Below, in pieces: positions 3,614 to 37,625 of a DNA stretch of 37,625 nucleotides. Within the stretch, counting starts at the first letter, position 1. The number at the start of each line of letters is the position of its first letter. The DNA is from Chiloscyllium plagiosum (lineage: Eukaryota): NCBI RefSeq assembly GCF_004010195.1, contig NW_025213944.1, positions 1 to 37,625 on the forward strand. Direction: 5' to 3'. A program made the translations under genes and the position numbers. Under the pieces are notes generated by a model. That model saw nothing but the letters and a program-made list of their open reading frames with translations, made no database searches and was not told where the DNA came from.

Positions 3614-3854
3614 TCCTTTGTCTTCTTTCTTCTGTATTTTCCCCCATAAAGAAAACTGTGCACAGTACCATAGATATATATTTAGCATAACCGACCTGCT
3701 GTTCTAATTTTGCGCTTCAATCAGTGAAGGAAAGAATCCTGTATGTTTTCTTCATCTCCCTACTGACCTGCCTGGGGATAGGCATTCCAAGGTTAGAATA
3801 TACTTCCACTCATAATAGTAGAGTCTACCACTACTTCAGTGGTAGACTCACTGA

Positions 3855-4017
3855 CTCAGTACTAGATTCACCAACTTTAAGGGCATTTAAATGGTCATTC
3901 CATAAACATATGGATGAAAATGGAATAGTGTAGGATAGATGGGCTTCAAATTGTTTCCACACGTCAGTGCAACATTGAGGGCTGAAGGGACTGTACTGCA
4001 ATGTTCTGTGTTCTATA
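3855..4017 (+). mobile_element. CR1 3' tail, same subfamily as the end of 32901-34187
   Basis: catttaaatggtcatt...atggatgaaaatggaatagtgtaggatagat is shared with 34063-34120; ends gttctgtgttctat. Confidence 0.8.
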
Positions 4018-13049: not shown

Positions 13050-13948
13050 GATGGATAGAGTCAAGATTAGGGTGGTGCTGGAAAAGCACAGCAGGTCAGG
13101 CAACATCCGAGGAGCAGGAAAATCGACGTTTCGGGCAAAAGCCCTTCATCCCCTAATCTTGACTCTTATCTCCAACATTTGCAGTCCTCACTTTTGCCAA
13201 GGTGATGGGCAGGTCAGGAGGGCTGTGTTGAGTTGGAGGCTTGGAACTGTGATAATGTGGGGGGGTGGCGAAGGGGAAATGAGGAAACTGTTGAAATCCA
13301 CATTCATCCCATGTGGTTGCAGGGTCCCAAGGTGGAATAGGAGAACACTTCATACCCCTTTTTGGCCATCTTATGTCAGTTAAAAAGCCTAGGGCAGCCA
13401 CTTTAAGTCAACCTTAGTCATGGGCAGCTGCCCTGCAACCACATGGGATGAATGTGGATTTCAAAAGTTTCCTCATTTCCCCTTCGCCACCCCCCCCCCC
13501 CCCCCTACATTATCACAGTTCCAAGCCTCCAACTCAACACAGCCCTCCTGACCTGCTCATCACCTTGGCAAAAGTGAGGACTGCAGATGTTGGAGATCAG
13601 AGTCAAGATTAGGGGATGAAGGGCTTTTGCCCGAAACGTCGATTTTCCTGCTCCTCGGATGTTGCCTGACCTGCTGTGCTTTTCCAGCACCACCCTAATC
13701 TTGACTCTATCCATCACCTTTCCCATCTATCCGCTCCACCCCCCTCCCCCGCTAACCTATCACCTTCTCCCTCACATTTATCTACCTATCGCTTTCTCAG
13801 CTACCTTCCAACCCCACCCCCTCCCATTTATCTCTCAGCCCGCCGGCCCACAAGTCTCATACCTGCTCCTCGGATGCTGCCTGACCTGTGCTTTTCCAGC
13901 ACCACACTCTCAACTCTGAACCCCAGCATCTGCAGTCCTCCCTTTCTC
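13050..13948. mobile_element. Composite Penelope-like element (family B) with long inverted arms and GIY-YIG C-terminus
   Basis: Arms 13050-13324 and 13431-13715. Encodes LFHLGTLQPHGMNVDFNSF. The 3' pseudo-LTR tail runs to about 13948. Confidence 0.85.
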
Positions 13949-19967: not shown

Positions 19968-20525
19968 AGATAAGGTATCTATCAATTTTTTAAAAAAAGT
20001 AATTTTTTGAACACATTCTACAGTTGCTATGGGGTTTTGTTAATATACAGAGTGTCTAGTCATTGAATTGGTATGGAGAAGCCATAATTTGGCATGAAGG
20101 TTATAAAGAGTCATAGAGGGTGCCACAAGGGCAAAGCTTGGCACTGGTGGTATGTGAACTCATGGATGGACAGACTGTATCAAAATCATCACTTGCAGTG
20201 GGGAGCATGGGTAAAACATTTGGAACTTCACTTTCGAAATATTCCCTTATCCAGGTTATGGTGCATGATACTCCAAAGCCCCATCAACTCTTTGGAAAGT
20301 TGACCTGCCTCCATGGAAAATGTAAAGGATGAGAACATGCTTATCCTTTCTATGGAGCTGACAGGTCAGGAGTGTCGGGAGTAGGCTTAGGATTGAAACT
20401 ATCAGGCTGGCCAGTGAACATTACATTCACACCAGATCGAGACACTCAGGCCAAGTGGGCTGTTAGCATTAGGACCATACCCAGACTATCCCAGATGCAG
20501 GGAGCCTTTGACTGTGCTCATGTGA

Positions 20526-20743
20526 GACTAGATTAGAGTGGTGCTGGAAAAGCACAGCCGGTCAGGCAGCATCTGAGGAGCAAGAAAATCGACATTTCAG
20601 GCAAAAGCCCTTCATCAAGACTCAAGACTTTTGCCTGAAACGTTGATTTTCCTGCTCCTCGCATGCTGCCTGACTGGCTGTACTTTTCCAGCCCACTCTA
20701 ATCTAGACTCTGATTTCTAGCATCTATAGTCCTCACTTCTGCC
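20526..20743. mobile_element. Penelope-like pseudo-LTR fold-back (family B)
   Basis: Arms about 20528-20608 and 20628-20706, about 37-bp extension, perfect 14-bp TSD ctgtgctcatgtga (20512-20525 and 20744-20757). Confidence 0.85.
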
Positions 20744-24024: not shown

Positions 24025-24350
24025 CATGGTGGCTTAGTAGTTAGCACTGCTGCCTCACAGCGACAGCGACCCAGGTTGGATTCCCACCTCGGGCAACTGT
24101 CTGTGTGGAGTTTGCACATCCGCCCAGTGTCTTGTTGGGTTTCCTCTGGGTGCTCCAGTTTCCTCCCACAATCCAATGATGTGCAGGTTAGGTGAATTGG
24201 CCATGCTAAATTGCCCATAGTGTTCAAGGATGTGTAGGTTAGGTGCATTAGTCAGGGGCTATGTAGAGTAATAGGATAGGGGAATGGGTCTGGGTGGGTT
24301 GGTATGGATGCATTGGACCAAATGGCCTGTTTCCACACTGTAGGGATTCT
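24025..24350 (+). mobile_element. HE1-like V-SINE, near full length
   Basis: ggtggcttagtagttagcactgctgcctcacagc; tgtgtggagtttgcacat; gatgtgcaggttaggtgaattggccatgctaaattgccc; tail cctgtttccacactgtagggattcta. Confidence 0.9.
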
Positions 24351-27065: not shown

Positions 27066-27280
27066 CTTTATTTAATAAGTTGGGAGGAAAGATGGAAACA
27101 GATAAAGCACTTGTTAAGTTCGTCCTACATCAGTTTTTACACTTAGATGATGTTGATGAATAACTGAAATAAAGATTTACATTAAAGCCACTGATGGTTC
27201 CAAAACAAAGAGATAAGACTTCCCTTTGTGAAAAATGCAATATTTCACATGCCAGTAATAGGCCACAATAGTATTGAAAT

Positions 27281-27640
27281 TGTTGTGGATCTGTTCGCCG
27301 AGCTGGGAATTTGTGTTGCAGACATTTTGTCCCCTGTCTAGGTGACATCCTTAGTGCTTGGGAGCCTCCTGTGAAGCGCTTCTGTGATGTTTCCTCCGGC
27401 ATTTATAGTGATTTGTATCTGCCGCTTCCGGTTGTCAGTTCCAGCTGTCCACAAGTGGCCGGTATATTGGGTCCAGGTCGATGTGCTTATTGATTGAATC
27501 TGGAGGCTTCACAGGAGGCTCCCAAGCACTGAGGGTGTCACCTAGACAGGGGACGAAACGTCTGCAACACAAATTCCCAGCTCGACGAATAGAACCACAA
27601 CAACGAGCACCCGAGCTACAAATCTTCTCACAAACTTTGA
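27281..27640. mobile_element. Penelope-like element inverted pseudo-LTR (family A) with GIY-YIG C-terminal remnant
   Basis: Same sequence family as 19621. Minus strand encodes DSINKHIDLDPIYRPL. TSD agtattgaaatt/agcactgaaatt (2 mismatches). Hammerhead cores are mutated. Confidence 0.85.
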
Positions 27641-29570
27641 GCACTGAAATTTCCCACCTCATATTTATTGTTTATCAATGATTATGCTACCTCAAACTGA
27701 AAATAATTGGTGCAATCTACCTTTTTGAACTCCTGACTAGTAATAGCAGGTGGCTGATGTTATAACTTGCACTTGCTGACATGCTCTCCCTGTAGTGTTT
27801 ACAACACAAGACACGAATTATTGCATTTTAGTTGCTGCAGCATGAGCAAAGTGCTGGGTAATGCAAGCAGAAAACATCTAGAATGTTGCTTACTTAGCAG
27901 CTGGTGCATCTGAGAAGTGCACCATTTGCTGTTCATCTGTTGAAAATGGGAACTATAAAGAGGAACCAAAGGCAGAGCATGTGTAATTCTTTGGCTTTAA
28001 CCTTCCTCCTAGACCGCTCAGCTTGACTGTTGTGTGCATCAGGCCTCGAGGTCTGTATACTATTATCATTATCCTCCCCACATGTATCTTGACCTGTTTC
28101 AGTTACAACGATTATACATTTAAAGCAGCTGCTCAAAGAAATTTGGGTAACTCTGTGCCACTGACAAGTTCCTTGTGCTGAATAAGCAATATGCTTCAAA
28201 CAACATATGAACTGGCTTTATATGAATGTCCAAGCAGCACATACTTGGAGTAGAGGCCCCAGTACTATGCTGACAGGCCCAGTTTTGGAAGGATACTAAA
28301 CTGCAACATCTCCATGCTCTGGTATCCGTAGGAGTATGTTTATGGAAATTGTCACTGTGTATCCATATATAAATTTAAATGGATAAACATTATTTAAGAA
28401 AAGTGTTTCCTCAATAATGAAAGCTCTGAGAAGTAACAGCACAACCACTATATAAATATTACACCTCTATTATTTCAATGAAATCATTAATGCAGATGTA
28501 GCAGCTTATTGCTTCATTCCTTTTGGTTGTTGACCTCATAATGTTTTATTCATAAAATTATATGGCAGGAAATTTAATGAGACCTGAAAACAGATGTGAG
28601 AATAGGGAATTGCACTATTGTGTGATCACACATCTGAGCATAGTGATTGTACTATCTTGCAAATAGTGAGAGCTCATATGAGTTAAAGCTGGCCTGCTCT
28701 ACTTAGTGAGCCTGCATGTTTGCATGCACAAAAAGTTGTCGCAAGTTGTCTAAAATGTGATGAGATAATAGAAAAGGAGAAAGTCAGTGGATGAGCAATG
28801 GCAAATATATAAGCAGATATCGCATAATGCTCAACAAATATTTATTCCAGTCAAAAAGGACTCAATGAGAAGGATGAACCAAACATGATTTTAAAAAGGT
28901 GATCGAGGAAAGTATTCAATCAGAAACCAAGGCATACAAAGATGCAAAAAACAGTGGTATGTCAGAGGATAGGAAATTATTTTAGGAATCAGCAGCAGAT
29001 GACTCAAAGACTAATAAGGAGGATGATAATTGATTATGGAAGTAACTTGGCAAGAAATATATAAAAAGAAACACCAAGAACTTTTCACATACATAAAGAG
29101 AATGAGAGACATAGAATCAGAGTCATAGAGATCTACAGCACAGAAAAAGGCCTGTTAACCCATCAAGATTATGCTGGTCAAAAACAATGACCTAACTATT
29201 CTAATCCCATTTTCTAACACTTGAACTTTTATGCCTTGGCATTGCAAGTGTGCATCTAAAGACTCCTTACACATTGAGGGTTTCTGCCTCTACCACTCTT
29301 ACAGATTGTGAGTAGCTAAAATAAGTGCGGGACTCCTGGAGAATGCAACTGGGGAATTGATAATGGGGAACAGGGAAATGGCAAATAATTTAAATCAATA
29401 CTTTGTGCATCAGTTTTCAAGGTGGAGAATATTATAAACATTCCAAAGATAACATAAGCAAAGTACTAACTGTAGGAAAGATCTCAAATCATGATGGATA
29501 AAGTATTTGACAACTTAATGGGATTAAAGGTGATCTAGTGCAGGACTTTGGTGGCCTGCGTCCAAGGGGT

Positions 29571-29855
29571 TTAGATTAGATTACTTACATTGTGGAAACA
29601 GGCCCTTCGGCCCAACAAGTCCACACCGCCCCGTCGAAGCGCAACCCACCCATACCCCTACATTTATACCTTACCTAACACTACGGGCAATTTAGCATGG
29701 CCAATTCACCTGACCTGCACATCTTTGGACTGTGGGAGGAAACCCACGCAGACACGGGGAGAACATGCAAACTCCACACAGTCAGTCGCCTGAGGCGGGA
29801 ATTGAACCCGGGTCTCTGGTGCTGTGAGGCAGCAGTGCTAACCACCGTGCCGCCC
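29571..29855 (-). mobile_element. HE1-like V-SINE, full length, relatively young
   Basis: Reverse complement begins gggcggcacggtggttagcactgctgcctcacagcaccagagacccgggttcaattccc (A and B boxes) and ends with an (aatct)n tail. Confidence 0.9.
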
Positions 29856-30001
29856 AAAGGAAGTGGCTGCAAAGTTAGTAGAGTTATTGATTAAAATATT
29901 CCAGAACTCATTGGATTCTGGGAGGGTTATGGTGGACTGGAAAACTGTGCCTATGATGCACTGTTCAAGAGGAATGGAGGCAGAAATTAAGAAACTATAG
30001 G

Positions 30002-30131
30002 AGAAAATGAGGACTGCAGACGCTGGAGATCAGAGTCGAAAGTGTGGCACTGGAAAAGTACGGCTGGCTAGGCAGCATCGGAGGAGCAAGAGAGTCGACA
30101 TTTTGGGCATCAGCCCTTCACTTTTCAACTC
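30002..30131 (-). mobile_element. Penelope-like pseudo-LTR fragment (family B) nested in an old CR1
   Basis: TSD aagaaactatagg/aagatactatagg (29989-30001 and 30132-30144). Confidence 0.8.
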
Positions 30132-30579
30132 AAGATACTATAGGCCAAATAGCCGAACATCTGACATTAGGAAGGTCCATTATTAAGGAAGAAATACTGG
30201 GGCATTTAGAAACACAATGCTATAAAAGAGTCATCATGGTTTTGTGAAAAGGAAATCCTGGATAACAACTTTGTTAGGGTTCTTTGAGGATACAACAAAC
30301 AGAGTTGCTAAACAGGTTAATGTAGCATGCTTGAATTTTCAGAACATATTTAATGAGCTGCCACATAAAGACTATTACACAAGATAGGAGCTCATGGTAT
30401 TGGGGCTAATGCATTCATATGTATCGAACATTGGCCAACATGTAGAAGACAGAATGAAACTGATGAGCCATATTCAGGTTGGAGTGCCACAAGGATCAGT
30501 CCTAGAGCCACGATTACTTATATATTTATCATATCTGTATTAATTATTGAGAGGAGAGGGCACAGTATAATGTCTAATC

Positions 30580-32900
30580 ACTAAACAAAAATGATCTTGA
30601 TTCCTAAATGCGAGGATAAAGACTGCCTGAAAAGCATAGACAACTGGCGGCCTATAACCATTGGTCTGATGCTGCTACGACTTTTCACGAAATTAGTGCC
30701 GATATGCCTCAGTGAAACCGTCAAAATTAGCAACAGGCAACAGGGGTTTCTAGCAGCCACTCCCAGGTGCAATGAAAACATTGTCATCCTCGAGAACATA
30801 ACTAAGGGAGCAAAGCATAACTGTAAGGACCTCCCAGTTGATCTGGCAAAAGTGTTCGACTCAGTTGGGCACAAACTACTATTGAAAACGTTGCAAAGAG
30901 CACATTTTCCAAAAGCCTGATCAAGGATCTCCACACTGGCAATATAACTGTGGTAGAAGGGAACAATACTTATACCACTCCAATAGACATTGGGAGGGGT
31001 ATGATGCAGGCCGACCCACTCTCTCTGATATTATTTAACATCTCTCTTGAGCCATTGATATGCTGTCTGGAGAAGGCAGACTCGGGGGTCGCCATGCTCC
31101 TGGGTGGAAGAAGAGTCAACTGCTCGACTTTGGCCTTTGCAGAATGACATAGCCCTTCTGAGTGACTCTCACACCGGCATGGCGAGGAATCTGAACTGCT
31201 TCAGTCATAGTGTGACCATACGGGCCTCAATATTAACATCGTGAAGACAAAGAGCTTCCACTTTATGTTTGAGAGGAAGCCCTTCCTGTACAATCACTTC
31301 GCTAACTGGAAGCTGCGTAACGCTTATATAGCCCCAGGTGATACTGAGAAATGCCTGGGTGCTCGTACGAACCCGTGGGCAGGTGTGACAGAAGGAGAAT
31401 GTGAGGAGAGGCTTAAGACGGGAGTGAAAGGAATACAGGCAGCATCCCTCCGACTGAGGCAACGCCTAGAAATCCTAAAAACCCATGTCATCTCCAGATT
31501 GTATTTTCATTTGATCCTGTCCGAAGCATCTTGAAGCAGACTGATAAAGCTGGACCAGATTGTATGCAATGCCATGAAAGAATTCCTCCACCTACCACCT
31601 CCTACCACTGATGGAGTCCTGTATGCTAACAACCAGAATGGCGGTGTAGGTGTGCCGAAACTGGAAGTGCAAATTCCATCCACGATTGTCCACAAACGAG
31701 AGGCACTAGATATGTCCAAGGACGTGATCATAAGGACCTCCTTCCAGTATAGAGGAGAATGCAACAGAGATACCATTGCAGGACTGTGAGAACACAAAAT
31801 CCTCAAAGAAATTGAAGATTTCCTACCTGGCAGCCAAAGTGGCAGCAAAGGGAAAATGGATCCAATGACTCACATCCAGGCAATTATGCCAGCACTACAG
31901 GATGCTGGGTGACAGAAACTGCCCAACAGGTGTGCAGGATGGAGAGAGTGGGAATAAAAAAGTGGTGAAGCCCTGAATGTCAAGGGGCAGGCATTCAGTA
32001 TTACAGAGATGACAAGATCTCAAACTCTTGGTTGAAACCAGCAATTCAACTGAAATCCTCATGGTTTATAAACAGCTATACTCAACAAGAGCCACCTATC
32101 ATGGGGAAGACCAAACAAAAACAAAACTTGCCGAAGGTGTGAGACGGCTATCAAAACCATTTCACACATCTCGGGTTGCTGCCCATTTGTTAAAAACACT
32201 CGAATAAAACACCATAATAAGATCGTAGACCAGTTGTGGAAGCATGTCAGTAAATACAGCTGGACATCATACATTGAGCCGAAGTTATTCATGAAAGATG
32301 GCTCACTATGGAAACCCAATCTCATATTTGAAAAAGATCAAAAGATCGTGGTAGTCAATGTCACAGCATGGTACGAAAACATCAAAGCGTTGGAAATGGC
32401 ATGGCGTGTAAAAACAGAGAAATATAACCACCTTAACACCGAGATAATGGAATTGGCGGGAGGCTCTCAACCCAAGGACTTTGGCTTCATGATGGGTGCT
32501 CAAGGCAAGTGGCTGCTTGAATAACAGCCTGAAATTCCTCAGCATTGAACCATTCCGAACATTCGCTCAAAGGACATCTAGGCTCACCTTTTCACTGACA
32601 CTCAAATTATTACACCTCTTCAGTGATAAGTGAGCAAAATACCGCAGACCGGCTCTGGTCGGAGACAAGGACCGGCCAACCCTCACCGAACAGATTAACT
32701 AAAAATAATAAAATGAAAAACGGGGGCGCCGGTCCATCAAAACCACCATCAGTTCTGACACCAGACTGTTATATTACCCCTTAGTTTGAGCCTCATATAA
32801 ACACCAATATTACCTGGACCTGGCCCGTGGTAATGCTAGAAAGTCTAAATGTCAACAGGTGACGTAAAGACTCGGAAAAGGCACTCGTGAGTGTGGATAA
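30580..32900 (+). mobile_element. R2-clade (restriction-like endonuclease) non-LTR retrotransposon, 5'-truncated and pseudogenised
   Basis: Frameshifted ORF pieces: LIPK..DNWRPITIG..LRLF, RQQGF...CNEN, VDLAKVFDSV, GMMQADPLSLILFN, LAFA(D)DIALLS (1-nt insertion near 31143), KEFLHLP..TDGVLY....GGVGVPKL, QGAGIQYYRDDKISNSWL, CCHC knuckle CRRC..TISHISGCC from 32129, HNKIV, KPNLIF..VVNVT, EKY, GFMMGAQGKW. Stop at 32631-32633, then a 3'UTR of about 270 nt. Confidence 0.85.
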
Positions 32901-34187
32901 CATGTTGGAAAAGGTTATAAGAGAGAGGATTTATAATCGTCTAGAAAGGAATAAATTGATTAGGGATAGTCAACTTGGTTTTGTGAAGGGTAGGTCGTGC
33001 CTCACAAACTTTATTGAGTTCTTTGAAAAGGTGACCAAATAGGCGGATGAGGGTAAAGCAGGTGGATGTGGTATATATGGATTTCAGTAAGGTGTTTGAT
33101 AAGGTTCCCCATGGTAGGCTATTGCATAAAATACAGAGGCATGAGATTGAGGGTGATTCAGCAGATTGGATCTGAAGTTGGCTAGGTAAAGGAAGACAGA
33201 GGATGGTCGTTGAATGGAAATGTTCATCCTGGAGTTCAGTTACTAGTGGTGTACCACAAGGATCGGTTTTGGGTCTAATGCTGTTTGTCATTTTTATAAA
33301 CGACCCGGATGAGGGCGTAGAAGGATGGGTTAGTAAATTTGCAGATGACATTAAGGTCGGTAGAGTTGTAGATTATGGAGGGGCATAGGTAAACTGCAGA
33401 GTTGGGCTGAGAGGTGGCAAATGGAATTTAATGTGGAAAGTGTGAGGTGATTCACTTTGGAAGGAGCAATAGGAATGCAGAGTACTGGACTAAAGGTAAG
33501 ATTCTTGGTAGTGTAGATGAGCAGAGAGATTTTGGTGTCCATGTACATTGATCCCTGAAAGTTGCCACCCAGGTTGATAGGGTTGTTAAGAAGGCATACG
33601 GTGTGTTAACTTTTATTAGTAGAGGGATTGAGCTTTGGAATCATGCGGTCATGTTGCAGCTGTACAAAACTTTGGTGTGGCTGCACTTGGCGTACAGCGT
33701 ACAGTTCTGGTCACCGCATTATAGGAAGGATGTGGAAGTTTTGGAAAGGGTTCAGAGGAGATTTACTAGAATGTTGCCTGGTATGGAGGAAAGGTCTTAT
33801 GAGGAAAGGCTGAGGGACTTGATACTGTTTTCATTGGAGAGAAGGAGGTTGAGAGGTGACTTAATGGAGACATAGAAGATAATCAGATAGAGTGAACAGT
33901 GAAAGTCTTTTTCCTTAGATGGTGATGGCTAGCACAAGGGAGCATAGCTTTAAATGGAGGGGTGATTGATAGACGACAGATGTCAGAGGTAGTTTCTTTA
34001 CTCAGAGTAGTAGGGGCGTGGAACACTGCCTGCAACAGTAGTAAACTCATCAATTTTAAGGACATTTAAATGGTCATTGGATGGATTTATGGATGAAAAT
34101 GGAATAGTGTAGGATAGATAGGCTTCAAATTGGTTTCACGGATTGGTGCAACATCAAGGGCCAAAGGGCCTGTACTGCGCTGTAATG
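32901..34187 (+). mobile_element. CR1-type LINE, 5'-truncated (RT domain to 3' tail), with stops and frameshifts
   Basis: [64 protein letters not shown], ending in the tail gggccaaagggcctgtactgcgctgtaatg. Confidence 0.9.
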
Positions 34188-35189
34188 AGAAAAGAATATT
34201 TAAGCTTTACTTCAACCTCACACATGTGACACTTCTATTAAGTCTAAAACCCACATCTCACACCTTGCACATGTTGCCAGATATTCAACCAAGGCAGGAA
34301 CACCGCACAGATACCTGCACCACATTCAATGACAGTCTTTTCACTTGCTTACATGACAAGGTTATGTATAATTGGAGGCAGCACAGCACTTAAACTGCAA
34401 ATAGGCCTGGGCTGTGTCCCCTCAACCTGATGAAGATTGAGATGAAGCTCGATGTCATTGGAATGGCCAAGACTGTGGTCATTGGTGGGGCTGAAACAAT
34501 GGAAGGTGTGGTATGCTTATACTAGAAGATGGCTCCGCTCTTCACAGATTCCTCACTGAACACTTTGGTCTAATATATCCAAGCCAAAACGAGATGGTCT
34601 TCCTTTCTGATGAAGACTCTCCTACAAGACCCAGATGGCTTAGGTCCAAGTTGCACATGAGGTCAGCACCACAGCAGGCTGATAGTTGAAAAACATATGA
34701 AGAATTTACTATGCTCCTCAAGGGTAAAAGTGTCACTATCTTGTCACTGCAAGTTCACACTCATGGAACCATCACTCAATCCTCAATACCAACGTGTCTG
34801 AGGATGAAGATTGTGGAATCCCAGTGGACGCACTGGTGAGGCGTTCACCCTCACCAGAGTCTGTCACCCCAGTAGATATGTTAACTCAGATATACTCAAG
34901 GACACCAGCCAGTGACGATCACTGACCAGTATTTGCAGTTAATGTCGAAGGTGCCCCCCAAAATCTTTGGCTGTCCAAGATGGTTGAAGTCCAGTCATAA
35001 GCTCAACTTGAGGCAGATGATGTGACTCTGGGCATAACTGACTTGTTTAACCTACAGAGACAAATAGGGAAACATCAGGCCAGATTGCCAGAGGTCCTCA
35101 CTGGGCTAAAATGAAGGATGGAGGGGTTTATCTATCTGCTGTTAACTGTTGTGCTTTGTCAGCATATGAGCACTTGGTTACTCCATTTT

Positions 35190-37625
35190 GATAGAGCGGC
35201 GAGGAGAGAAGATGGAGTGAAGCGAGGGCTGCTGGGAAGGGTAAGTTTTCCCATTTTTTCCTGTCTGGGAGCAGAGGGAGACACAGCGAAGGTGGAGACA
35301 AGGAGCGTCCCGGGAAGGTAAGGACTTAATATATATTTGGGCAGCGGCTAAACCAGAGATACTACACGTGAAGTATCTCTCTCCCGCCCCCCTCCTCTAA
35401 CCGGAAGAAAAAGACTCTAAGGTAAGGCTTCTATTTTTTTCTTCATCTTTATTTTTCATATATTTAAGTGCATAGTTTAGTTTTAGTTAGTTGATATAAA
35501 GCTAAAGCTGACAATGACAGGGGACCTCAGACCCCTGGCATGTACCTCTTGCTTGATGTGGGAGCTCAGGAATGTGGCTGACGTTCCTGACTCTTACACT
35601 TGCAAGACGTGTGTTCAGCTGCAGCTCTTGTTTGACTGTATGACAGCTCTGGAGCTGCGGATGGATTCACTGTGGAGCATCCGCAATGCTGAGGAGGTAG
35701 TGGATAGCACGTTTAGTGAACTGGTCACACCGCAGGTTAGAATTGCTGAGGGAGACAGTGAATAGGTGACCAAAAGGCAGAAAAGAAGTAGGAAAGCAGT
35801 GCAGGTGTCCCCTGCAACCATCTCCCTCAAACAGGTATACCGTTTTGGATACTGTTGGGGGCGATGGCTCACCAGGGGAGGGCAGCAGTTGCCAAGATCA
35901 TGGCACCGTGGCAGGCACTGCTGCTCAGAAGGGCGGGAAAAAGACCATAGTCATAGTCATAGGGGATCCTGTAGTAAGGGGAGTGGATAGGCGGTTCTGT
36001 GGCCAAAAACAGAACTCCCGGATGGTATGTAGCCGCCCAGGTGCTCCAGTCAGCGATGTCACTGATCAGCTGCAGAGCATTCTAAAGGGGGAGGGTGAAC
36101 GGCCAGTTGTCGTGGTGCATATAGGCACCAACAATAAGTAAAAAAACGAGATGAGGTCCTGAAAGAAAAATTCAGGGACCTAGGAGAGAAGATAAAGAGG
36201 AAGACCTCAAAGGTAGTGATCTCGGGATTACTACCAGTGCCACGTGCTAGCTAGTGTAGAAATGAAAAAATAGGCAGGATGAACATGTGGCTTGAGAGAT
36301 AGTATAGGAGGAAGGGATTCAGATTTGCTGGATATTGGGACCGGTTCTGGGGAAGGTGGGACTATTACAAAATGGATGGTCTACATCTGAACCAGACTGG
36401 AACCAATGTCCTTGGGGGAGTTTTTTGCTACTGCTGTTGGGGAGGTTTTAAACTAATGTGGCAGGGGTTGGGAACCAGAAGAGAAAACAAGTAGACAGCG
36501 AGGTGGAAACTGGAGACTGAAAAAGAATCATGAAGATAGTATTAATAAGGGGAAGAGTAGGCAGAGAGCAGATGAACGCAAAAGAACTGGTGGCCTGAAA
36601 TGCATCTACTTTAACGCAATGAATATAGCGTGCAAGGCAGATGAACTTAAGACTTGAATTGGTGTCTGGGAGTTATTGCAATCACAGAGACTTGGTTGAA
36701 GGAAGGGCATGATTGGCAACTAAATGTTCCAGGATATAGACACTTCAGACAGGACAGGGAGGGAAGTAAAAGGGGGGTTGGGGTGGAGTTGCATTGCTGG
36801 TCAGGGATTATATCATGCTGTGCTAAAGGAGGACACTATGGAGGGCTTAGGTAGTGAGGCATTATGGGTGGAGCTGAGAAATAAGAAGGGTACAGTTACA
36901 TTGATGGGGCTGTATTACAGGCCTCCCAACAGTGAGTGAGAGGTAGAAAAACAAATAGGTAAACAGATTATGGAAAGATATGGAGGCAAGAGGGTAGTGG
37001 TGATGGGAGATTTTAATTTTCCCAACATTGACTGAAATACACTTAGTGTCAGAGGTCTGGATGGGATGGAATTTGTAAGAAGCATCCAGGAGAGTTTTCT
37101 CGAGCAGTGTGCCAATAGTCCGACGAGGGAAGGGGCCATATTGGACCTGGTATTGGGGAATGAGCCAGGACAGGTGGTAGAAGTTGTGGTGGGGGATTTC
37201 TTTGGGCACAGTGACCACAATTCTGTAAGTTTTAGAATACTCATAGACAAAGATGAGAGTGGTTCTAAGGGAAGAATACTAAACTGGACCAAGGCCAATT
37301 ATATTAGGCAGGAGCTGGGAAATGTGGTTTGAGAGCAGCTATTTGAAGGGAAGTCCATATTTGATATGTGGGAGGCTTTCAAAGACAGTGCAGGATAGGC
37401 ATGTCCCATTTAAGGCAAAGGATAGGAAAGGCAAGATTCGTGATCCGTGGATGACAGGAGAAATCATGCGACTAGCCACGAGGTAAAGAGAAGCGTACAT
37501 AAGGTTGAGGCAGCTAAGAACAGAATGTGCCCTGGAAGAATATCGGAAGAGTAGGACAGTCTTAAACGAGGAATAAAGCGGTCATGAAATAGGGGTCATG
37601 AAATAGCTTTAGTGAGCAGAATTAA
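35190..37625 (+). mobile_element. CR1 LINE 5' portion: 5'UTR, ORF1 (CxxC..CxxC/leucine zipper plus SGNH esterase) and start of ORF2 (APE endonuclease); decayed; runs off the window
   Basis: ORF1 from 35514: CTSCLMWE..YTCKTCVQLQLL, then VIGDPVVRG, CSRPGA, VVVHIGTN, DGLHLN. ORF2: IAITETWL, GLYYRPPNS, MGDFNFP, PTREGAILDLVLGNE, HSDHNSV. In-frame stops present. Confidence 0.9.

What the first reader, a model, noticed from the sequence alone, without database searches (positions are those of the whole stretch)
32860..32945. Apparent native R2 3' terminus fused directly to a 5'-truncated CR1: possible template-switch chimera
Seen: the R2 3'UTR ends ...CTCGGAAAAGG-CACTC-GT-GAGTG-TGGATAA (purine tract, perfect 5-bp hairpin, GATAA) and is followed at once, on the same strand, by CR1 RT sequence (LEKVIRERIYN). 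From memory, avian R2 3' ends have a similar CGGAAAAGG-hairpin-GATAA layout. The CR1 upstream of the R2 is a different, older copy that has already passed this RT position, so this is not a simple insertion into one CR1. Inference: a CR1 RT may have copied its own RNA and then switched onto the 3' end of an R2 RNA, by analogy to U6/L1 chimeras. That would explain an R2 outside rDNA. The TGTGG at the junction may be microhomology. I could not find a TSD bracketing 30580-34187, so two independent events or a deletion remain possible.
Basis: partly seen in the sequence, partly recalled or inferred. Interest (0 to 1): 0.7.

Follow-up and report, generated by a model that had tools for sequence, protein, structure and literature searches.

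The report
Stray shark R2 abutting a CR1
A dead copy of R2, a jumping gene that normally lands only in ribosomal DNA, is joined near its tail end to a dead CR1 jumping gene in a shark-like genome; it most likely landed there by its own off-target insertion, as sister copies appear to have done, though a one-step hybrid copy is not excluded.

Summary
The junction is real but misread in detail. A decayed, 5'-truncated lineage-A R2 (30578-32894) abuts a same-strand, 5'-truncated CR1 (32892-34187), and two related species have the same join. 'GATAA' is probably not the R2 end: CR1 coding sequence aligns in frame from 32892. A published rDNA-inserted zebra-shark R2 and two sister copies end in a TTC/TCC-(T)AAA tail instead. 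The copy lacks about 7 terminal bases and joins CR1 through a 3-nt microhomology. No chimera is needed to put R2 outside rDNA. Close relatives lie on seven separate bamboo-shark scaffolds. Two of three sister 3' ends keep the native tail followed by TAG(C), as in R2's own off-target insertions. None repeats this join. No target-site duplication beats chance, and the two halves cannot be told apart in age (p=0.15). Best reading (0.5): R2 inserted into an existing CR1, and a deletion removed the upstream part. Template switch 0.22; later CR1 insertion 0.22. One sister copy ends at a SINE head, which keeps the chimera idea alive. The scan has already reported stray R2 copies in CR1 in this and other shark genomes.

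The parts
28733..30577 (+). Old, heavily decayed CR1 ORF2, interrupted by two short repeats; stops just before the FADD motif, so its last ~0.9 kb is missing
   Evidence: Profile of CR1 proteins: 30139-30525 E 1.7e-14; colinear weaker pieces from 28733, E 0.004-0.4; 45.7% identity to P0156; reading on to 30577 by eye; no continuation found after 34187
30578..32633 (+). 5'-truncated, dead R2 ORF (RT, thumb, CCHC knuckle, RLE endonuclease); 5 stops and 7 frameshifts in about 682 codons; stop codon 32631-32633
   Evidence: 5' boundary by eye against the R2-1_SAc nucleotide row
32634..32894 (+). R2 3'UTR, about 7 nt short of the family's native end
   Evidence: Sister copies align to 32889-32894 and stop; R2-1_STig 3'UTR
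32842..32872 (+). Predicted two-part stem in the R2 3' core; inner stem shows two double-sided changes against R2-1_STig
   Evidence: Fold z -3.1; pair comparison by eye
32881..32894 (+). Predicted terminal hairpin after the CGGAAAAGG linker; its 3' arm ends at the junction
   Evidence: same layout in R2-1_STig and avian R2
32892..32894 (+). 3-nt microhomology TGT shared by R2 and CR1: the junction
   Evidence: CR1 loose ends before 32892 and 32903; sister R2 copy matching to 32894
32892..34187 (+). 5'-truncated, dead CR1 (RT from the VGK motif, 3'UTR); 7 stops and 6 frameshifts in 403 codons; ends without the short tail repeat seen on the copy near 4010
32888..32891 (+). Candidate 4-nt duplication TGAG for the CR1 alone (other copy 34186-34189); weak
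   Evidence: chance 0.07 given the boundary slack

Best explanation
This is a dead, 5'-truncated R2 copy whose 3' end sits in a same-strand CR1, most likely because the R2 protein primed reverse transcription off-target at a nick or break inside an already present CR1. Shown: identity and boundaries of both elements, loss of about 7 terminal R2 bases, a 3-nt microhomology, the same join in two related species, and sister copies elsewhere with native ends. Inferred: the CR1 strand served as primer by pairing with the last 10 nt of R2 RNA (TGT, and possibly the terminal TAAA: 7 of 10 letters match if the family ended like R2-1_STig), so copying began inside the tail. Inferred: one deletion of at least 0.9 kb, at insertion or later but before the three species split, removed the old CR1's 3' part, the young CR1's 5' part and perhaps R2's 5' part. 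That would explain why the two flanks do not belong together and why no duplication brackets anything.
For: Any R2 insertion puts its 3' end against flanking DNA, and that DNA is often CR1: CR1-group elements are 22-34% of elasmobranch genomes (PMC13343379), and 10.6% of this window is + strand CR1-profile match (this CR1 included). The family disperses by itself: P0004-6, P0008-10 and P0012 are C. punctatum gene models on 7 separate scaffolds of 121 kb-1.7 Mb, and five of them tested group with this copy (SH-aLRT 99, quick tree). Two of three sister 3' ends keep the native tail followed by TAGC or TAG, the downstream match reported for R2Tg off-targets (PMC12222951 section 11; PMC11371274 section 9). 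The CR1 half is, if anything, the more decayed: 13 per 403 against 12 per 682 codons; likelihood 0.14-0.15 for a CR1 1.5-2 times older, 0.05 for equal age, 0.009 for a younger CR1. No sister copy repeats the join.
Against: This junction has no TAG(C) and is about 7 nt short, unlike canonical R2 priming. The CR1 upstream of the join matches the 28S target at only 9 of 25 letters in register (by eye). In PRINT almost all R2 5' junctions lie within 100 bp of the nick, so the large deletion is probably a second event. A 4-nt duplication flanks the CR1 alone (chance 0.07), of the length typical for CR1 (PMC4245944). One of three sister copies also stops short and is followed by a SINE head, which random landing explains poorly. 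The age difference is not significant (p=0.15).
Confidence: 0.5

Rival explanations
1. Template-switch chimera: the CR1 reverse transcriptase, or an R2 RNP taking over the CR1 cDNA end, moved from CR1 RNA onto the last 10 nt of an R2 RNA, and both went in as one insertion with a target-site deletion.
For: Same strand; join within 7 nt of the native R2 end; 3-nt microhomology. Ages compatible with equality (p=0.15). A sister locus in organisms A and C stops at 32890 and is followed by a tRNA-SINE head, the layout an end-to-end jump would give. Chimeras by non-L1 LINEs and their SINEs are published for platypus and Anolis, with one unresolved U6-CR1 case in turkey (PMC4476161).
Against: No duplication around both halves above chance: TAAT lies wholly within the CR1 end, chance 0.13. 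R2 outside rDNA needs no such help. The CR1 half has 1.8 times the density of stops and frameshifts. Published 5' partners are abundant small RNAs (71% U6; PMC11838501); R2 RNA is expected to be rare (inference).
Confidence: 0.22
2. Later CR1 insertion at the R2's 3' end, or a later microhomology-mediated deletion that brought an R2 end and a separate CR1 together.
For: TGAG sits exactly at both CR1 boundaries (32888-32891, 34186-34189; chance 0.07); CR1-clade duplications peak at 3-5 bp, and microhomology at truncated LINE 5' ends is usual (PMC4245944). The SINE-followed sister copy could likewise be an insertion into the R2 tail.
Against: Needs the breakpoint to fall in the last 10 of about 2,300 R2 bases. 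The missing R2 tail and TAG(C) are not found after 34187. A younger CR1 fits the decay counts worst.
Confidence: 0.22
3. A propagated fused family, a fixed R2 hotspot at this CR1 base, or an assembly artefact.
For: Earlier unchecked scan notes report R2 hotspots in CR1 in this genome. The CR1 sequence 30 nt upstream of the join resembles the 28S -21 to -14 motif, 10 nt out of register (by eye).
Against: Only the window's own locus and its orthologues bridge this join in the pieces listed from 7 runs. Independent contigs carry the join in organisms A, B and C, which excludes an artefact.
Confidence: 0.06

Closest known systems
R2-1_STig, R2-1_SAc, R2-1_SCa (shark R2, Hassan et al. 2026, PMC13188248 Table S2)
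   Same: Terminal 3'UTR motif shared with R2-1_STig; RT start aligns with R2-1_SAc and R2-1_SCa
   Different: Those have 28S TAGCC downstream; this copy is dead, 5'-truncated, outside rDNA and lacks the last ~7 nt
R2Tg off-target insertions (PMC12222951, PMC11371274)
   Same: R2 3' end joined to non-rDNA through a few primer-complementary bases; two sister copies show the TAG(C) match
   Different: This junction has no TAG(C) and starts inside the R2 tail; its left flank is not contiguous with its right flank
U6/L1, Alu/L1, U6/L2 and U6/SINE chimeras (PMC4476161, PMC11838501)
   Same: Sense-oriented 5' partner joined near its 3' end to a 5'-truncated LINE
   Different: Those are called on one duplication around both parts or on joint arrival in alignments; neither is shown here, and the partner is an autonomous retrotransposon
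Non-specific R2 families R2NS-1_SMed and R2NS-1_CSi (PMC5035012)
   Same: R2 copies dispersed outside 28S
   Different: The shark family still has 28S-inserted members; no shark R2NS appears in the passages read

Membership tests
R2, vertebrate lineage A | RT plus C-terminal CCHC knuckle and RLE endonuclease closest to R2 | tested here: met
   phmmer to R2Tg E 1e-53, R2Bm E 6e-21; tree
R2, vertebrate lineage A | 3'UTR core: stem, CGGAAAAGG linker, terminal hairpin | tested here: met
R2, vertebrate lineage A | N-terminal zinc fingers and Myb domain | not testable with these tools
   The copy starts at RT domain 1 (30578)
R2, vertebrate lineage A | Insertion at the 28S target | tested here: not met
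   Flanks are CR1; no rRNA match in 28000-37625
CR1 LINE | CR1-type ORF2 RT and 3'UTR | tested here: met
75.7% identity to P0156, an EN-RT protein; 3'UTR 80% identical to the copy at 3839-3999.
CR1 LINE | 3' tandem tail and 3-5 bp duplication | tested here: inconclusive
   No tail unit after 34187; TGAG, chance 0.07
LINE template-switch chimera | Both parts on the same strand, LINE at the 3' side | tested here: met
LINE template-switch chimera | 5' partner joined at or near its RNA 3' end | tested here: met
   Within about 7 nt of the native DNA end; the RNA end itself is unknown
LINE template-switch chimera | One target-site duplication around both parts | tested here: not met
   the flanks are not contiguous
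LINE template-switch chimera | Both parts arrive together (empty site in outgroup, equal age) | tested here: inconclusive
   Both halves in organisms A, B, C (2-3% apart), no outgroup; decay ratio 1.8, p=0.15
R2 off-target TPRT product | TAG(C) directly downstream of the native 3' end | tested here: not met
   Absent here; present in 2 of 3 sister ends

The most novel reading that the evidence does not exclude
R2 RNA 3' ends are captured during CR1-driven retrotransposition in sharks: this locus (R2-CR1) and a sister locus (R2-SINE head) are two fossils of a switch from CR1 or SINE RNA onto R2 RNA at its terminal hairpin, a second route out of rDNA besides R2's own off-target insertion, and a record of where R2 RNA ends in vivo.
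Probability: 0.22. Interest if true: 0.55.

Novelty: new member of a known kind. Interest (0 to 1): 0.27.

Why it matters
As read here it is one more fossil of R2 missing its target, a class the scan has already noted many times in this genome; its own added value is a non-canonical 3' junction. If the chimera reading holds, it would be a LINE-LINE chimera between two unrelated clades, of which six literature searches listed no report by title or abstract start. It would also mark the in vivo 3' end of R2 RNA and show a way for R2 templates to be inserted by host LINE machinery, which bears on R2-based gene insertion.

Tried and rejected
No whole genome is held, so no census of R2 copies or CR1 subfamily consensus was possible. 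A short RLE query found no protein relatives. The metagenome scan for the terminal motif gave one hit, L001, inside bacterial-looking coding DNA: a chance match. My recall of a non-specific R2 family from elephant shark was not borne out in the passages read. Free duplication searches near the boundaries gave 5-7 nt matches at chance level (null fractions 0.21-0.94). A 28S-like motif search in the window was at chance (11 found, 8.9 expected). The idea of an R2 nick 10 nt upstream followed by a 20-nt deletion between two TGT is arithmetically neat but rests on a 10-of-21 match chosen among offsets; kept as speculation only. Rfam gave nothing relevant. Look-ups of earlier findings by relatives and by protein were blank. 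The careful tree did not finish; the quick tree is cited.

Full report
What is there. The window holds, on the + strand, an old CR1 (to 30577), a dead R2 (30578-32894) and a younger dead CR1 (32892-34187). The R2 read through its stops hits R2Tg and 9nl2/9nl3 at E 1e-53 to 7e-49 and R2Bm at 6e-21. Of the ten closest proteins looked up, seven are Chiloscyllium punctatum gene models, one is from catshark, one from a butterfly and one unnamed. The host is therefore probably a bamboo-shark-like species (inference). In a quick tree of 24 proteins the copy groups with the five C. punctatum proteins included, sister to catshark R2. The CR1 half is 75.7% identical to P0156 over 403 codons from the VGK motif.

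Where the R2 ends. Laying four runs on 32450-33050 showed CR1 contigs aligning back to 32892 or 32903, their loose letters being the CR1 NYRPVSLTSV codons. The window's 32893-32904 is in frame with V-G-K-V without an indel. R2-1_STig, which sits in 28S, shares GTAAAGACTCGGAAAAGGCACT and ends GAGTGTTCCTAAA before TAGCC (PMC13188248 Table S2). In one search (22 records laid, 24 of 31 loose ends shown) four loci reach the terminal motif: the window's own locus; X2 record 12, matching to 32894 and then TTCAAAG-TAGC; X17 record 5, matching to 32889 and then TGTTTTTCAAAA-TAG; and X5 record 16 / X17 record 4, stopping at 32890 and followed by CAYGGTGGCTCAGTGG. That last motif matches the head of the window's own tRNA-type SINE at 24025. 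X2 record 7 is assigned to the same locus by shared differences; its loose letters were not shown. So the shark family ends about 7 nt after 32894, this copy lacks those bases, and TGT at 32892-32894 belongs to both elements. A native GATAA cannot be fully excluded but fits worse (5 of 7 letters to CR1, 2-3 of 7 to shark R2 tails, by eye).

Reality and age. The join is bridged by 31 or more letters on each side in organism A (X1 record 1, no difference; may be the source), B (X10 record 12, 7 differences in 313) and C (X18 record 17, 16 differences and 13 gap letters in 475). It is not an artefact and predates their split; no species with one half was available. Sister R2 pieces listed differ from this copy by 10-18% pairwise, and contigs laid on the stretch, mostly CR1, peak at 90-95% likeness: both suggest similar decay. 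Stops plus frameshifts are 12 in about 682 codons for R2 and 13 in 403 for CR1 (p=0.15). One further R2 frameshift probably lies just before the aligned start, and two adjacent CR1 stops may be one event, which would narrow the gap.

Flanks. The old CR1 runs colinearly from about 28733 to just before FADD and does not resume after 34187, so at least 0.9 kb was deleted under every model. Anchored at the boundaries, the best duplications are TGAG for the CR1 alone (chance 0.07), TAAT for the composite (inside the CR1's own end, chance 0.13) and TAA for the R2 alone. CR1-clade duplications are 3-5 bp and microhomology at truncated LINE 5' ends is common (PMC4245944), so neither feature is diagnostic.

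Mechanism. Three models make the same sequence. R2 priming in an existing CR1 gives an R2 3' end at the join by necessity. It is favoured by the abundance of CR1, by the family's independent dispersal with the TAG(C) signature of R2 off-targets, and weakly by the decay counts. It is hurt by the absence of TAG(C) here, the poor 28S likeness of the site, and the rarity of large upstream deletions in PRINT. The template switch explains the near-terminal join equally well and gains from the SINE-followed sister copy, but has no duplication and is not needed. Later CR1 insertion gains from TGAG but needs a breakpoint in the last 10 bases and fits the ages worst. My odds, 0.5, 0.22 and 0.22, are judgement and not a computed result.

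Limits. Contigs at 80% likeness show only close subfamilies: four 3' ends, against 55-65 stray copies claimed in unchecked earlier notes. Those notes also report CR1 hotspots and at least 21 tRNA-SINE fusions in this genome; I could test only that stray copies exist. Table S2 cells are cut at 400 characters, so the 3' ends of R2-1_CPu, R2-1_SAc and R2-1_HSa could not be seen, and R2-1_CPl and R2-1_SCa have no 3'UTR cell; these may bear on the native end.

Papers seen. PMC5035012: passages and part 2 of 5. PMC13188248: abstract, passages, and Table S2 rows in the spreadsheet. PMC11371274: passages and section 9. PMC12222951: passages and sections 8 and 11. PMC11838501, PMC4476161, PMC4245944, PMC13343379: passages only. 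No R2-CR1 chimera appeared in the listings; that library lacks most subscription papers.

Verdict. Real junction, correct elements, misplaced terminus. Most likely an ordinary stray R2 beside an abundant repeat. Interest 0.27; 0.55 if the capture reading (probability 0.22) is shown by a genome census.

Noticed in passing
X5 record 16, X17 record 4, probably X2 record 7 (laid on window 32640-32890): A sister R2 copy in organisms A and C stops within the terminal hairpin and is followed directly by a tRNA-SINE head on the same strand; nested insertion or chimera.
   Followed up: partly
X2 record 12 and X17 record 5: Two sister R2 copies end in the native tail followed by TAGC and TAG, natural examples of the off-target signature of R2Tg. 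By eye both flanks could be CR1-derived; not tested.
   Followed up: partly
joints 32679-32687 to 32859-32864: Some copies skip about 180 nt of the 3'UTR yet keep the terminal motif: a shorter-UTR subfamily or internally deleted copies.
   Followed up: no
window 32842-32872: The inner stem of the R2 3' core differs from R2-1_STig by two double-sided changes and one G-U change, suggesting a conserved RNA structure in shark R2.
   Followed up: partly
P0003 and P0154: Two long, nearly open catshark R2 frames (921 and 1013 aa) lie on contigs of 255 and 325 kb, so dispersed R2 probably exists in catsharks too.
   Followed up: no
window 35500-37625: A long CR1 with an upstream esterase-like frame (by eye) and the endonuclease part of ORF2 runs off the window end.
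   Followed up: no
window 13057-13707, 20524-20743, 27280-27603: Inverted pairs of short repeats lie close together.
   Followed up: no
P0007: A 2328-aa butterfly gene model made of six near-identical R2-like C-terminal units.
   Followed up: no
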